DNA from: Luteimonas sp.
GTDB taxonomy: Bacteria > Pseudomonadota > Gammaproteobacteria > Xanthomonadales > Xanthomonadaceae
DNA: 25,346 nt
NCBI GenBank assembly: GCA_043737255.1
Contig: JAYTAY010000001.1
Location: forward strand, 1-25,346
Direction of reading: 5' to 3'
Of this stretch, positions 8,750 through 11,935 are shown piece by piece (position 1 is the first letter of the stretch; each line of letters begins with the position of its first letter). A program made the position numbers and the translations under genes. Under the pieces are notes generated by a model. It was not told the DNA's origin and searched no databases. It saw nothing but the letters and a program-made list of their open reading frames with translations.

Positions 8750-9805
8750 TCATCGCAATGAATCGTTGATCTTCTCGAGCGTGGCGATGCCTGGCGACAA
8801 CTCGGCCGCATTCAAGGTATTCAACGGCGCGGCGACGGTATTGAGATGCCCGTGCAAGTCATCCGCCACCGGATCGACGAACAACAATCCCGTCACCACT
8901 TCGCCCGCCGCCTGCCGCTGCTGGATGATGTTCATCGCAGCGATGCGGTCGCGCGGATCGTAGGCATCGTCCAGCTTGCGCAGGCGCAGTACCGAGCCGT
9001 TGTGTTGCTCGACCTCGATGGTCTCGCCCGCGCGGTAATCGACCGCAATCTCGGCGCGCGGCACCATCACGTCGAGCTGGTTGACGGCGTCGTTGTGTTC
9101 GCGCACGTAGTCGTAGCTTTTGGTGCTGCCGGCGTGGTTGTTGAACGCGACGCATGGGCTGATGACATCCAGGAATGCGGCGCCGCGATGCGACAGCGCG
9201 CCCCTGATCAGCGGCACCAGTTGCGGCTTGTCACCCGAGAAGCTGCGTGCAACATAAGTCGCACCCAGTTGCAGCGCCATCATCACCAGGTCGATCGGAC
9301 TGTCGCTGTTGGCGACGCCTTTCTTCGACATCGAACCCTGGTCGGCGGTCGCGGAAAACTGGCCCTTGGTGAGTCCGTACACGCCGTTGTTCTCGACGAT
9401 GTAGACCATGTTCACGCCGCGCCGGATCGCATGCACGAACTGGCCGATGCCGATCGATGCAGAATCGCCATCACCGGATACACCGAGATAGATCAGTTCG
9501 CGATTGGCGAGATTGGCGCCGGTCAGCACCGACGGCATGCGCCCGTGCACGGTGTTGAAGCCGTGCGACTGGCCTAGGAAGTAGTCCGGCGTCTTGCTGC
9601 TGCAGCCGATGCCCGACAGCTTGGCGACGCGGTGCGGCTCGATGTCGAGTTCCCAGCAGGCCTGGATGATGGCCGCGGAGATCGAGTCGTGGCCGCAGCC
9701 TGCGCACAGCGTGCTGATTTTCCCCTCGTAATCGCGACGGGTAAAGCCGATCGCGTTGCAGCCGAGGGAGGGGTGGTGGAGTTTTGGCTTGGTGAGGTAG
9801 GTCAT
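8750..9805 (-). CDS. 2-oxoacid:ferredoxin oxidoreductase beta subunit (KorB-like, TPP-binding)
   Basis: CAGCGH, SGIGCSS, HGRMPSV, TPP motif GDGDSASIG...ENNGVYGLTKGQ, and ISPCV. The substrate cannot be determined from sequence. Confidence 0.92.
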   Translation of the reverse strand: MTYLTKPKLHHPSLGCNAIGFTRRDYEGKISTLCAGCGHDSISAAIIQACWELDIEPHRVAKLSGIGCSSKTPDYFLGQSHGFNTVHGRMPSVLTGANLANRELIYLGVSGDGDSASIGIGQFVHAIRRGVNMVYIVENNGVYGLTKGQFSATADQGSMSKKGVANSDSPIDLVMMALQLGATYVARSFSGDKPQLVPLIRGALSHRGAAFLDVISPCVAFNNHAGSTKSYDYVREHNDAVNQLDVMVPRAEIAVDYRAGETIEVEQHNGSVLRLRKLDDAYDPRDRIAAMNIIQQRQAAGEVVTGLLFVDPVADDLHGHLNTVAAPLNTLNAAELSPGIATLEKINDSLR

Positions 9806-10017
9806 GACTGCAACTCAACGATGCCGCAAATTCCGAGGTCGTCGTGACCAGCCAGCCGGCTGTTGAACATTACGCGAGGGCGGGAACCCAGCGACTTTTG
9901 TTTCGGGGTTCCAACGCACCCAAGCGAGAGCCGCTGGGTTGACCACCTTACGCTGTTGAACAACGCTTGCGCCTTCGCGGTAATGACGAGCAACAGCGAC
10001 AGCAGCGTCCGCCTCAT
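9802..10017 (-). CDS. Putative 71-aa bridging ORF between alpha and beta genes (REP-derived)
   Basis: Its ATG (10017-10015) overlaps the alpha stop and its TGA (9804-9802) overlaps the beta ATG. It starts after GGGAGA. Translation is not demonstrated. Confidence 0.45.
   Translation of the reverse strand: MRRTLLSLLLVITAKAQALFNSVRWSTQRLSLGCVGTPKQKSLGSRPRVMFNSRLAGHDDLGICGIVELQS
9845..9868 (+). repeat. Nested hairpin module, copy 3 (TGACCAGCCAGCCGGCTGTTGAAC)
   Basis: Read directly. Same ends as copies 1 and 2 with a longer loop. Confidence 0.75.
9940..9961 (+). repeat. Nested hairpin module, copy 4 (TGACCACCTTACGCTGTTGAAC)
   Basis: Read directly. Preceded by GCCGCTGGGT, as copy 2 is preceded by GCCACTGGGT. 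Followed by AACGCTT, as copy 1 is followed by AAGCGCTT. Confidence 0.75.
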
Positions 10018-11855
10018 GCAACTTTCTCCCGTTGCATCGCCGGACGCACTCGCGCCGCAATGGCATCGGCGATGAAACGTGCCGTAACCGGCGTGCCGTC
10101 GTAATGCAACACCGCAACCAGCCGCGCCGGATCGATGCCGAACTCGTTGACCAGCAACGAGCGCAATTGAGCATCGCGGTTCTGTTCGATCACGAACACC
10201 GATTCATGCGCATCGATGAAGGCGCGCACGGATTCAGGAAACGGAAACGCGCGTACACGCAGCGTGTCCAGCGCGATTCCTTCATCGCGCAAACACTCGA
10301 TGGCCTCCTGCATCGCCGGACTGGTCGAACCGAAATAGATCGCGCCATGTTTCGCCGGCACATCCGACTGGCGCACGATCGGCTGCGGCACCAGCGCCTT
10401 GGCGCTGTCGAACTTCTGCAACAACCGTTGCATGTTGTAGACGTAATCTGCACCGCGCTCGGAATATTGCGCCTGCGGATTGCGCGAGGTGCCGCGGGTG
10501 AAATATGCGCCCTTGTCGGGGTGCGTGCCCGGATAGGTGCGGTACGGGATGCCGTCGCCGTCGATGTCCTTGTAGCGCGCGAACTCCCTGCCCGTATCCA
10601 GCACATCGGCGGTCATCACCTTGCCGCGGTCGTAGGCGCGCGCGTCGTTCCACACGAACGGCGCGCACAGGCGCTGGTTCATGCCGATGTCGAGGTCGGT
10701 CATCACGAACACCGGCGTCTGCAGGCGGTCGGCAAGATCGAGCGCGGCGGCGGCAAATTCGAAACACTCATGCGGATCTTCCGGAAACAACAGCACGTGC
10801 TTGGTGTCGCCATGCGACGCATACGCGCACGCCAGCACATCGGACTGTTGCGTGCGCGTCGGCATGCCGGTCGACGGCCCGCCGCGCTGCACGTCGATGA
10901 TGGTCACCGGAATTTCGGCGAAATAGGCCAGGCCGATGAACTCGTTCATCAACGACACGCCCGGGCCCGACGTCGTGGTGAATGCACGCGCGCCATTCCA
11001 CCCGGCGCCGACCACCATGCCGATCGATGCGATCTCGTCCTCGGCCTGGATGATCGCGAACCGGTGCTCGCCGGTGACGGGATCGACGCGGTATTTCTGG
11101 CAATACTTTTCGAACGCCTCGGCCAGCGACGACGACGGCGTGATCGGATACCACGCGCATACCGTCGCTCCGCCGTAGACACAACCTAGTGCGGCTGCGG
11201 CGTTGCCCTCGACGAAGATGCGGTCCCCGACCGCATCGGCCGCCTGCACGCGCAGGCCGATCGGATATTGCAGATGCTCGCGCACCCAGTCGCGGCCCAG
11301 ATGCAACGCCTCGATGTTGGGCTTCAGCAACTTCTCCTTGCCCTTGTACTGCGCAGCGATGAGCATCTCGATCGTCGGCACGTCGATGTCCAGCAGCGCG
11401 CTCAGCGCACCGACATACATGATGTTCTTGAACAACTGGCGCAGGCGCGGATCGCTCCAGGCCTCGTTGCAGATCTGGGTCAGCGGCACGCCGAGGATAT
11501 GGATGTCGTCGCGGAATTTCGACTTCGGCAGCGGCTTGCTGTTGTCGTAGAACAGATAGCCGCCCGGTTCGATCTCGGCGACATCGACGTCCCAGGTCTG
11601 CGGGTTCATCGCCACCATCAGGTCGACACCACCACGCCGTCCGAGCCAGCCGCGTTCGGACACGCGCACCTCGTACCATGTCGGCAAACCCTGAATGTTC
11701 GACGGAAAGATGTTGCGCGGGCTGACCGGCACGCCCATGCGCAGGATCGCCTTGGCGAACAGTTCGTTGGCGGATGCGGAACCGGAACCGTTGACGTTGG
11801 CGAACTTGACGACGAAGTCGTTGGTGGATTGCAGGGGAGCGTGGGCGGGGGTCAT
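10014..11855 (-). CDS. 2-oxoacid:ferredoxin oxidoreductase alpha subunit (gamma-alpha fusion, KorA-like)
   Basis: N-terminal FANVNGSGSASAN gamma-like domain, WYPITPSS, QAEDEIAS, TSGPGVSLM and QRGGPSTGMPT. Start at ATG 11855 after GAGGT. Confidence 0.92.
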   Translation of the reverse strand: MTPAHAPLQSTNDFVVKFANVNGSGSASANELFAKAILRMGVPVSPRNIFPSNIQGLPTWYEVRVSERGWLGRRGGVDLMVAMNPQTWDVDVAEIEPGGYLFYDNSKPLPKSKFRDDIHILGVPLTQICNEAWSDPRLRQLFKNIMYVGALSALLDIDVPTIEMLIAAQYKGKEKLLKPNIEALHLGRDWVREHLQYPIGLRVQAADAVGDRIFVEGNAAAALGCVYGGATVCAWYPITPSSSLAEAFEKYCQKYRVDPVTGEHRFAIIQAEDEIASIGMVVGAGWNGARAFTTTSGPGVSLMNEFIGLAYFAEIPVTIIDVQRGGPSTGMPTRTQQSDVLACAYASHGDTKHVLLFPEDPHECFEFAAAALDLADRLQTPVFVMTDLDIGMNQRLCAPFVWNDARAYDRGKVMTADVLDTGREFARYKDIDGDGIPYRTYPGTHPDKGAYFTRGTSRNPQAQYSERGADYVYNMQRLLQKFDSAKALVPQPIVRQSDVPAKHGAIYFGSTSPAMQEAIECLRDEGIALDTLRVRAFPFPESVRAFIDAHESVFVIEQNRDAQLRSLLVNEFGIDPARLVAVLHYDGTPVTARFIADAIAARVRPAMQREKVA

Positions 11856-11935
11856 GCGGTGACCTCTGCACCAACGTACTGTATGCAAGCCGAAATGCTT
11901 TCAGCCGTCATTCCCGCGCTTAGCTTGCACTTCAT
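11852..11935 (-). CDS. Putative 27-aa bridging ORF (MKCKLSAGMTAESISACIQYVGAEVTA)
   Basis: Its ATG overlaps the flavoprotein stop (ATGA), 4 nt after GGGAGG. Its TGA overlaps the alpha ATG. Translation is not demonstrated. Confidence 0.45.
   Translation of the reverse strand: MKCKLSAGMTAESISACIQYVGAEVTA
11905..11918. repeat. Truncated CGTC-family REP fragment
   Basis: CCGTCATTCCCGCG resembles the start of the CGTC REP arm seen at 930-957 (inverted). Confidence 0.55.

What the first reader, a model, noticed from the sequence alone, without database searches (positions are those of the whole stretch)
9802..10017. 71-codon ORF exactly bridges the alpha stop and the beta start across a REP insertion (translational relay)
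Seen: alpha ends ...GGGAGAAAGTTGC-ATGA and beta begins ATGA-CCTAC. Removing the intervening DNA rebuilds a standard ATGA stop/start overlap with GGGAGA as beta's RBS. AGTTGCA and ATGA recur on both sides of the 208-bp insert, like a duplication. The insert is open in the frame that starts at the ATG overlapping alpha's stop and ends at the TGA overlapping beta's ATG. Beta's own upstream sequence has only a weak SD. The peptide begins like a Sec signal peptide (MRRTLLSLLLVITAKAQA). Established: ATGA overlaps mediate translational coupling in operons. Inference: a REP-derived insertion was tolerated because it formed a relay ORF that hands ribosomes from alpha to beta, and it may be a de novo small gene.
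Basis: partly seen in the sequence, partly recalled or inferred. Interest (0 to 1): 0.78.

Follow-up and report, generated by a model that had tools for sequence, protein, structure and literature searches.

The report
Relay reading frame bridging korA and korB
A mobile palindromic repeat sits where two enzyme-subunit genes once overlapped stop-to-start, and the inserted DNA is kept readable as a throw-away 71-codon frame that most likely hands ribosomes from the first gene to the second; over thirty unrelated inserts at the same junction in other bacteria follow the same rule.

Summary
On the minus strand, korA (2-oxoacid:acceptor oxidoreductase alpha) ends in ATGA at 10017-10014. korB (beta) starts with ATGA at 9805-9802. 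The 208 nt between them are stop-free in the one frame that links the two ATGAs.

About 154 of the 208 nt (9840-9993) derive from a palindromic repeat family with about 55 core copies in this MAG.

I examined 154 unique korA-korB junctions from Lysobacterales and Burkholderiales.
- 75 keep the direct ATGA overlap and 29 have spacers of 1-19 nt.
- Of 50 spacers of 20 nt or more (43 unrelated sequence clusters), 39 (33 clusters) are stop-free in exactly this frame. The other five frames manage 9-19.
- A shuffle null gives P about 1e-7.
- 31 of 43 clusters have the required length phase (P about 2e-7).

In bridged junctions the Shine-Dalgarno signal stays with the bridge start and is weak before korB.

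The peptides are unrelated between lineages, so translation matters, not the product. The signal-peptide look is simply the repeat arm translated.

The principle is known from mycobacterial MIRUs, and this scan has seen it on other DNA. New here is recurrence at one junction with unrelated inserts. There is no ribosome or reporter data, so the mechanism remains inferred.

The parts
10014..11888 (-). korA: 2-oxoacid:acceptor oxidoreductase alpha subunit. Its stop TGA is at 10016-10014. The longest ORF begins at TTG 11888; the true start may be the ATG 11 codons further in.
   Evidence: Pfam POR, POR_N and PFOR_II. NCBIfam TIGR03710 scores 581.8 bits against a cut-off of 482.75. The C-terminal tail ...REKVA* is shared with relatives.
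10025..10030 (-). GGGAGA Shine-Dalgarno motif inside korA's last codons. It is the ancestral korB ribosome-binding site and now sits 7 nt upstream of the bridge ORF's ATG.
   Evidence: In relatives with the ATGA overlap the same motif precedes korB. Mean anti-SD duplex is -6.0 kcal/mol before bridge starts and -3.8 before korB in bridged junctions.
9802..10017 (-). Bridge (relay) ORF of 71 codons plus stop. Its ATG (10017-10015) overlaps the korA TGA. Its TGA (9804-9802) overlaps the korB ATG.
   Evidence: It is the only one of the six frames of the spacer without a stop. No Pfam family.
9840..9993 (-). Repeat-derived core of the spacer: a diverged composite copy of the genome's palindromic REP-like family, whose consensus arm is close to GTCATTCCCGCGAAGGCGGGAACCCAGCG. 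The left arm is at 9970-9993. An inner module is at about 9934-9969. The inverted right arm is at 9873-9898. A terminal module is at 9840-9872.
   Evidence: 28 partial matches in the own genome. Coverage map, hit list and aligned copies. The 17-nt core has 55 hits in 42 loci. Internal inverted repeat 9885-9906 / 9919-9940.
9994..10013 (-). Left flank of the spacer. It has no repeat match and encodes RRTLLSL of the bridge peptide.
   Evidence: Zero coverage by genome-wide matches.
9806..9839 (-). Right flank of the spacer. It has no repeat match and holds the second AGTTGCA (9815-9809). There is no usable SD before korB.
8750..9805 (-). korB: 2-oxoacid:acceptor oxidoreductase beta subunit (TPP-binding). 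It starts with ATGA.
   Evidence: Pfam TPP_enzyme_C. Best NCBIfam matches are 2-oxoacid ferredoxin oxidoreductase beta models, all below their curated cut-offs. The N-terminus MTYL... is conserved in all relatives, and every one of the 154 starts is [A/G]TGA.

Best explanation
The 71-codon frame is a relay ORF, not a protein gene.

Ancestrally korA and korB overlapped as ATGA. korB's Shine-Dalgarno motif (GGGAGA) lay in korA's last codons, so korB was translated by ribosomes finishing korA and by ribosomes binding that motif.

DNA that is mostly a copy of the genome's palindromic REP-like repeat then came to lie between two copies of ATGA.

The old korB start codon and its SD stayed at the korA end. 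They now open a frame that runs through the repeat without a stop and terminates on the UGA overlapping the new korB AUG. Ribosomes that finish korA, or that start at the old site, are carried across the 208 nt. They melt the repeat's hairpins and keep the RNA covered. They are released exactly on the korB start, where they can reinitiate, although korB has almost no SD of its own.

What is shown:
- the anatomy of the junction;
- the repeat origin of most of the spacer;
- the ancestral ATGA state;
- strong cross-lineage selection for this frame and phase;
- the position of the SD.

What is inferred:
- that the bridge is translated;
- that korB expression depends on it through termination-reinitiation.
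For: 1. Ancestral state. 75 of 154 unique korA-korB junctions are direct ATGA overlaps, and all 154 korB starts read [A/G]TGA.

2. Frame kept open. Of 50 spacers of 20 nt or more, 39 have no stop in the frame that ends at the TGA inside korB's ATGA. The korB frame manages 19 and the third frame 12. The three reverse frames, counted only on the first 34 spacers, gave 12-15 of 34, where this frame gave 29 of 34. Per unrelated spacer cluster the count is 33 of 43, against 18.6 expected from dinucleotide shuffles (Poisson-binomial P = 1.1e-7). For spacers of 100 nt or more it is 23 of 31 against 10.1 (P = 8e-8).

3. Phase. 31 of 43 clusters have spacer length = 1 mod 3 (binomial P = 2.3e-7). 34 of 39 open frames have ATG, GTG or TTG overlapping or next to the korA stop.

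4. The inserts are unrelated. They include several REP families, a 213-nt x 3.7 tandem array open for 290 codons (L055), a conserved small membrane-protein gene, and sequence of unknown origin.

5. SD placement. Anti-SD duplex before korB averages -7.3 kcal/mol in overlap junctions and -3.8 in bridged ones (-2.2 in the window). It averages -6.0 before the bridge start.

6. Several apparent exceptions are relay chains or near misses. L158 has three ORFs joined ATGA / TGAnATG / ATGA / ATGA. L157 has two ORFs, the last ending 3 nt before korB. The relay frame in L076 and L046 ends 4 and 13 nt before korB.

7. A closely related strain in glacier and soil metagenomes carries the same spacer with 9 substitutions, no indels and the frame still open. 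The spacer differs at 4.3% of positions against about 1.6% in flanking coding DNA.

8. Neither an internal promoter nor a terminator was found on the gene strand.
Against: - There is no direct evidence of translation or of dependence. No Ribo-seq, proteomics or reporter data exist, and no RNA run held enough of the locus to look at transcripts.
- For this window alone the open frame has a chance probability of about 0.08.
- 11 of 50 spacers are not bridged by a single frame, and most of these also lack an SD (mean -2.6 kcal/mol; only L073 has GGAGG). korB can therefore be expressed in some lineages without an exact relay, or those MAG sequences carry errors.
- In one same-genus relative (L046, unpublished genome G001) the frame stops 13 nt short of korB.
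- Related genomes are not independent. I reduced this by clustering spacers by sequence, but did not map events on a tree.
- The shuffle null keeps a composition that may itself have been shaped by selection, which makes the test conservative rather than liberal.
Confidence: 0.75

Rival explanations
1. The spacer must be translated, but hand-over at the stop/start overlap is not the reason. Ribosomes on the spacer would prevent Rho-dependent termination, or RNase attack at the repeat hairpins, in a 200-nt untranslated gap. korB would then start on its own.
For: Translation across the spacer is what the open-frame statistics show directly, and they do not by themselves prove reinitiation. Some lineages have relay frames that stop 4-31 nt before korB. 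That would still protect the RNA.
Against: The phase bias is specific. 31 of 43 clusters end exactly on the TGA inside korB's ATGA. Protection alone would be served equally by a frame running a little into korB. korB lacks an SD in bridged junctions, so independent initiation is unlikely. The two mechanisms are not exclusive.
Confidence: 0.13
2. The frame is open by chance in GC-rich DNA. The bridge is not translated to any purpose, and korB is expressed independently.
For: The genome is 62.6% GC. For the window alone the chance of phase plus openness is about 0.08. The fold of the spacer is no more stable than shuffles (z = -0.71).
Against: The same frame is open in 33 of 43 unrelated spacers at the same junction (P about 1e-7), with a matching phase bias (P about 2e-7). 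The other frames are closed at the expected rate. korB has no SD of its own.
Confidence: 0.06
3. The ORF is a genuine, perhaps newly born, small gene encoding a Sec-exported peptide.
For: The N-terminus has MRR, an 11-residue hydrophobic stretch and AQA, as in signal peptides. The ORF has a good SD and an ATG. At the same position some lineages carry a real conserved 95-residue membrane protein gene (L035, L065, L089).
Against: The hydrophobic stretch LLVI(T/P)AKA is the translation of the repeat arm. Bridge peptides of other lineages share no similarity. The nearest strain has 4 non-synonymous against 4 synonymous codon changes. There is no Pfam family. The rest of the peptide is Arg/Gly/Ser-rich, as expected from translated GC-rich repeat DNA. 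No signal-peptide predictor was available.
Confidence: 0.05

Closest known systems
MIRUs, mycobacterial interspersed repetitive units (Supply et al. 1997, as described in the review PMC12548453, section 11, and in PMC3184786)
   Same: Both are short repeats lying between genes of an operon. In both, an ORF in the repeat overlaps the neighbouring genes and is coupled to the downstream gene at -4 nt spacing. Both have tetranucleotide direct repeats on either side. The tandem array in L055 has a period that is a multiple of 3, which recalls MIRU arrays.
   Different: The phylum differs (Lysobacteraceae, not mycobacteria), and the repeat is an unrelated REP-like palindrome. The ORF is not a built-in property of the element: part of it is non-repeat flank, and only about 4 of 16 co-directional spacers carrying this repeat in the same genome are bridged. 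Here the host junction, not one element family, shows the rule, since unrelated inserts all obey it.
Termination-reinitiation coupling at overlapping stop/start codons (ATGA / NUGA), reviewed in PMC12548453
   Same: Both junctions of the bridge are 4-nt ATGA overlaps. The downstream gene lacks its own SD. The ancestral korA-korB arrangement is the textbook case.
   Different: Two consecutive overlaps are joined by a 71-codon spacer frame with no evident product function. Dependence of korB on upstream termination was not measured.
Leader or activator peptides whose only role is to deliver ribosomes. Examples from my own knowledge, not checked here: tap before repA of plasmid R1, and repY before repZ of IncI plasmids. 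The short 'delivery' uORFs are discussed in PMC12548453.
   Same: A short ORF whose translation, not its peptide, enables translation of the next gene, with its stop at the downstream start.
   Different: Those ORFs are dedicated regulatory devices conserved with their replicons. This one is an accidental by-product of an insertion that passed a selective filter.
REP / REPIN elements of proteobacteria (own knowledge: Bertels and Rainey 2011; Nunvar et al. 2010; REP overview in PMC3184786)
   Same: A short GC-rich imperfect palindrome present in dozens of mostly intergenic copies, often as inverted pairs 60-110 nt apart.
   Different: No cognate RAYT transposase was found next to this family. 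The only Y1 transposase gene in the MAG is flanked by a different repeat. The copy in the window is diverged and composite.

Membership tests
MIRU-type relay ORF on an intercistronic repeat | A repeat element lies between two co-oriented genes of one operon | tested here: met
   9840-9993 matches the genome's repeat family. korA and korB are adjacent subunit genes on the same strand. Co-transcription itself was not tested.
MIRU-type relay ORF on an intercistronic repeat | The ORF start overlaps the upstream stop, and the ORF stop overlaps the downstream start (-4 nt) | tested here: met
   ATGA at 10017-10014 and at 9805-9802, with the frame open between them.
MIRU-type relay ORF on an intercistronic repeat | Tetranucleotide direct repeats flank the filled site | tested here: met
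   ATGA is present on both sides. The longer AGTTGCA repeat is only suggestive (p = 0.06).
MIRU-type relay ORF on an intercistronic repeat | Sequence membership in the MIRU family of mycobacteria | not tested
   No MIRU sequence was fetched for comparison. The host is a Lysobacteraceae MAG and the repeat is a REP-like palindrome, so membership is not expected. I claim 'works like', not 'is a'.
REP / REPIN | A short GC-rich imperfect palindrome in many, mainly intergenic, copies | tested here: met
   The 17-nt core has 55 hits (2 mismatches or fewer) in 42 loci of a 2.46-Mb MAG. 6 loci lie inside crude gene calls and 8 could not be placed (contig edge); the other 28 lie between called genes. 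The hairpin CCCGCG-AAG-GCGGG is visible in the copies.
REP / REPIN | Inverted doublets (REPIN form) | tested here: met
   Copies in C380, C416, C363, C31, C231 and C378 are inverted pairs. The window copy has diverged arms at 9970-9993 and 9873-9898.
REP / REPIN | A cognate RAYT (Y1 transposase) flanked by the same repeat | tested here: inconclusive
   There is one PF01797 match (C141, 33 bits), and it is flanked by a different repeat, GTAGGGTGGGCAC.... The MAG is 83% complete.
Termination-reinitiation translational coupling | The stop of the upstream ORF overlaps or abuts the downstream start | tested here: met
   The same arrangement is seen in 75 overlap junctions and 39 bridged junctions.
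Termination-reinitiation translational coupling | Downstream translation depends on upstream translation | not testable with these tools
   Testing this needs reporters or Ribo-seq. Indirect support comes from the weak SD before korB and from selection on frame and phase.
2-oxoacid:acceptor (ferredoxin) oxidoreductase, two-subunit type | Alpha subunit with POR, POR_N and PFOR_II domains; beta subunit with the TPP-binding domain | tested here: met
   Pfam. TIGR03710 is above its cut-off for alpha. The beta matches are to 2-oxoacid ferredoxin oxidoreductase beta models but fall below their curated cut-offs. Substrate specificity (2-oxoglutarate or another 2-oxoacid) is not settled, and 'kor' is used as a label only.

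The most novel reading that the evidence does not exclude
korB translation is so dependent on hand-over from upstream ribosomes that the junction acts as a selective filter. On this reading, whatever DNA lands between korA and korB survives only if it forms one ORF, or a chain of ORFs, that delivers ribosomes onto the korB AUG. That DNA can be a palindromic repeat of several families, a tandem array, anonymous sequence, or a whole gene. The many independent inserts would then be a natural mutagenesis experiment. It measures how strictly coupling is required for a heteromeric enzyme, and it shows that repeat-derived 'hypothetical small proteins' in operons can be purely mechanical relays.
Probability: 0.6. 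Interest if true: 0.7.

Novelty: new variant of a known kind. Interest (0 to 1): 0.6.

Why it matters
- It gives strong comparative evidence that translational coupling of two enzyme subunits constrains what mobile DNA can do inside operons. Insertions into a stop/start overlap are tolerated when they create a relay frame.
- It explains a class of small repeat-encoded ORFs that annotation pipelines either miss or call hypothetical proteins.
- It warns against reading signal-peptide-like N-termini of such ORFs as function.
- It offers a simple comparative test (frame openness and length phase across relatives) for finding obligatorily coupled gene pairs.
- The principle is already described for MIRUs in mycobacteria, and this scan has met it in other genomes. 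The gain is breadth and statistics, not a new mechanism.

Tried and rejected
- Rfam at a permissive threshold on 9500-10300: no family.
- RNA fold of the spacer: -89.4 kcal/mol, z = -0.71 against shuffles, so there is no exceptional structure.
- Promoter and terminator scan: nothing on the gene strand in the spacer. The single terminator-like hit is on the + strand inside korB and within the shuffle expectation.
- A loose 15-mer regex for the repeat gave only noise. It was replaced by BLAST hits and a 17-nt core.
- Junction duplication as the origin of spacers: only 4 of 50 spacers reach p of 0.05 or less in the local-alignment test, and the window has p = 0.06. It is not a general rule.
- A two-step origin through a 5-nt tandem duplication giving a 2-codon mini-bridge: rejected, because most 1-nt spacers read CTGAnATGA and so have no start codon.
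- The idea that unbridged junctions had gained their own SD: not supported. Their mean is -2.6 kcal/mol, and only L073 has GGAGG.
- RAYT association of the repeat: the only Y1 transposase gene has a different flanking repeat.
- Pfam on the bridge peptide and on the 95-residue membrane protein of L035: no family.
- RNA evidence: RNA runs hold at most 0.15 of the sampled words. I therefore used the single read-laying run on DNA runs, and co-transcription was not examined.
- No signal-peptide predictor was available.
- I did not run the large protein homology searches on the 71-residue peptide, because unrelated peptides in relatives already answer the question.
- I did not build a tree to count insertion events.
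Full report
**What is there.**
The window is the whole of contig C1 of a 2.46-Mb, 509-contig, 83%-complete MAG. Its GC content is 62.6%. Its KorB is closest to Lysobacter/Luteimonas-type Lysobacteraceae.

All relevant genes are on the minus strand.
- korA spans 10014-11888. Pfam finds POR, POR_N and PFOR_II, and TIGR03710 (2-oxoacid:acceptor oxidoreductase alpha) scores above its cut-off.
- A 71-codon ORF spans 9802-10017.
- korB spans 8750-9805 and has a TPP_enzyme_C domain. Its best NCBIfam matches are 2-oxoacid ferredoxin oxidoreductase beta models, all below their cut-offs.

korA ends ...GGGAGAAAGTTGC-ATGA, and the ATG of that ATGA opens the small ORF. The small ORF's TGA lies inside the ATGA that starts korB.

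**The insert.**
A search of the organism's own genome with the spacer gave 28 partial matches. They fall on two stretches of the spacer. These stretches are the two arms of a palindromic repeat whose usual form is close to GTCATTCCCGCGAAGGCGGGAACCCAGCG. It is often present as inverted pairs 60-110 nt apart.

A 17-nt core of the repeat has 55 hits in 42 loci. Where flanking genes could be called, most lie between them.

The copy in the window (about 9840-9993) is diverged and composite. The 20 nt next to korA and the 34 nt next to korB match nothing repeated. So the phrase '208-bp REP insert' is only about three-quarters true.

The only Y1-transposase (RAYT-like) gene in the MAG is flanked by a different repeat. 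The mobilising enzyme of this family is therefore unknown.

Rfam finds nothing. The fold is not unusually stable. No promoter or terminator is seen on the gene strand.

Contigs from glacier and soil metagenomes span the spacer with 9 substitutions and no indels. The structure is therefore real and occurs in more than one sample.

I collected korA-korB junctions from three sources: relatives, the species-representative genome collection, and a 400-genome sample of the order. In each I located the korA stop and the korB start.

There are 154 unique junctions.
- 75 are direct ATGA overlaps, with an SD-like GGAG/GAGA in korA's conserved ...E-K/R-V-A tail.
- 29 have spacers of 1-19 nt.
- 50 have spacers of 20-1101 nt.
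- All 154 korB genes start [A/G]TGA.

The 50 long spacers fall into 43 clusters with no sequence similarity to one another. Among them are other REP families (for example GTAGGAGC-type units in L040 and L041), a 213-nt x 3.7 tandem array (L055), a conserved small membrane-protein gene (L035, L065, L089), and anonymous sequence.

**Result.**
I call the frame that ends at the TGA inside korB's ATGA the T frame.
- The T frame has no stop anywhere in the spacer in 39 of 50 cases.
- The korB frame is stop-free in 19 of 50 and the third frame in 12 of 50.
- On the first 34 spacers, the five other frames were stop-free in 9-15 cases, against 29 for T.

Taking one representative per cluster, 33 of 43 are open, against 18.6 expected from dinucleotide-preserving shuffles (Poisson-binomial P = 1.1e-7). 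For spacers of 100 nt or more the figures are 23 of 31 against 10.1 (P = 8e-8).

Independently, 31 of 43 clusters have spacer length = 1 mod 3. This is the phase that puts the start codon overlapping korA's TGA in the T frame (binomial P = 2.3e-7).

34 of the 39 open frames have ATG (20), GTG (11) or TTG (3) overlapping or next to the korA stop.

L055 is the extreme case. Its spacer is 869 nt, its repeat period is a multiple of three, there are no indels between units, and 290 codons are open.

For the window taken alone the chance of phase plus openness is about 0.08. It is the recurrence that carries the weight.

**Where the ribosome-binding site is.**
I measured the anti-SD duplex energy for the 18 nt before each start.
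- Before korB it averages -7.3 kcal/mol in overlap junctions.
- Before korB it averages -3.8 in bridged junctions, and is -2.2 in the window.
- Before the bridge start it averages -6.0.

The bridge has thus inherited korB's old initiation site. The relocated korB start is nearly bare, as a hand-over mechanism requires.

**Exceptions.**
Eleven spacers are not crossed by one open T frame.
- L158 has three ORFs joined ATGA / TGAnATG / ATGA / ATGA.
- L157 has two ORFs joined by ATGA, the second ending 3 nt before korB.
- In L076 and L046 the relay frame stops 4 and 13 nt before korB.
- In L148 and L068 long frames stop 31 and 15 nt short.
- L073 has its own GGAGG.
- L181, L182, L118 and L187 remain unexplained. 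As a group the exceptions do not have better SDs.

In L167 a full-size gene of more than 433 codons ends in ATGA with korB. In L030 (same genus) the T frame is open through the repeat arm up to the contig edge.

L046 comes from genome G001, which is unpublished. Only the statement about that one same-genus junction rests on it. Because it served as the (closed) representative of its cluster, dropping it would raise the count of open clusters, not lower it.

**Is the peptide itself functional?**
Probably not.
- Bridge peptides of different lineages are unrelated.
- The signal-peptide-like stretch LLVI(T/P)AKA is the translation of the repeat arm, and it recurs wherever that arm is read in this frame.
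- The near-identical strain from other metagenomes differs by 4 synonymous and 4 non-synonymous codon changes. The spacer evolves about 2.7 times faster than the flanking coding DNA, yet it acquires no stop in T and no indel. A new stop does appear in another frame.
- Pfam finds nothing.

**Is the repeat built as a relay?**
No. In this genome only about 4 of 16 short co-directional spacers that carry the repeat are bridged (C154, C501, C348). The constraint belongs to the junction, not to the element.

**Origin.**
ATGA is present on both sides of the spacer, as are the tetranucleotide direct repeats reported for MIRU-filled sites. The longer AGTTGCA repeat in the window is only suggestive (p = 0.06). 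Clear junction duplications are seen in few lineages, for example L132.

My idea of a first step through a 5-nt duplication failed. Most 1-nt spacers have no start codon at the korA stop.

**Comparison with what is known.**
[quoted passage not shown] This likely minimises the effect on expression (PMC12548453). A 2011 review adds that MIRU ends overlap the adjacent genes of a polycistron and are flanked by tetranucleotide direct repeats (PMC3184786).

A full-text search for REP sequences together with translational coupling returned nothing relevant.

Earlier agents of this scan reported the same architecture on other DNA, for example a REPIN array in a Xanthomonas mdc operon and repeats in pilus, ABC-transporter and kinase gene junctions. 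Those notes gave me the MIRU lead, and I checked it in the papers myself.

The present case therefore works like a MIRU relay, but it is not a member of that family. What it adds is a single conserved junction at which dozens of unrelated inserts obey the same frame and phase rule.

**Verdict.**
The de novo gene or secreted-peptide idea is not supported. The mechanism (termination-reinitiation, possibly together with protection from polarity) remains inferred until reporters or ribosome profiling are done.

Noticed in passing
L035:2547-2834 (minus strand of the locus); homologous ORFs in L065 and L089: In some Lysobacterales (e.g. Tahibacter and Rudaea MAGs) a conserved ORF of about 95 codons sits between korA and korB. 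It appears to encode three hydrophobic helices and is joined TGATG/ATGA at its start and ATGA at its end. It looks like a real small membrane-protein gene rather than a relay. No Pfam family.
   Followed up: partly
L055:635-1504: The 869-nt korA-korB spacer is made of 3.7 tandem copies of a 213-nt unit (a multiple of 3; 93% matches, no indels). It is open for 290 codons from an ATG 3 nt after the korA stop to the ATGA of korB.
   Followed up: yes
L158 and L157 (spacers of 457 and 460 nt, re-oriented coordinates): These spacers hold chains of two or three short ORFs linked by ATGA or TGAnATG junctions. Together the ORFs span the spacer from the korA stop to the korB start.
   Followed up: partly
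L167 (G415), 1300 nt upstream of korB: No korA end was found. Instead an ORF of more than 433 codons ends in an ATGA overlap with korB. By eye it has Sel1-like repeats and a 2OG-oxygenase-like C-terminus (not scanned).
   Followed up: no
Own genome G000: C154 about 811-933, C501 about 1144-1356, C348 about 1450-1745: Three other co-directional gene pairs in the same MAG have a copy of the same repeat in their spacer. Each also has an ORF running from the upstream stop ([A/G]TGA in C154 and C501; a TTG 8 nt after the stop in C348) to a 4-nt overlap with an in-frame start of the downstream gene. Gene calls were crude.
   Followed up: partly
Own genome G000:C141:3872-4222 (minus strand): A RAYT-like Y1 transposase gene (PF01797, 33 bits; HxH and YxxxNP motifs visible) is flanked on both sides by a different palindromic repeat, GTAGGGTGGGCAC... 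This is a second REP family in the MAG.
   Followed up: partly
window 9831-9981, variant strain in runs X5, X6, X7: Glacier and soil metagenomes hold a strain with the same spacer but 9 substitutions. One is T13P, which restores the repeat consensus CATTCCCGCG. Loose ends in X7 point to further korA-korB spacer variants in the same habitat.
   Followed up: partly
window 11856-11888: The longest korA ORF starts at TTG 11888, but an ATG lies 11 codons further in and the family model aligns from residue 24. The annotated start may be too far upstream.
   Followed up: no
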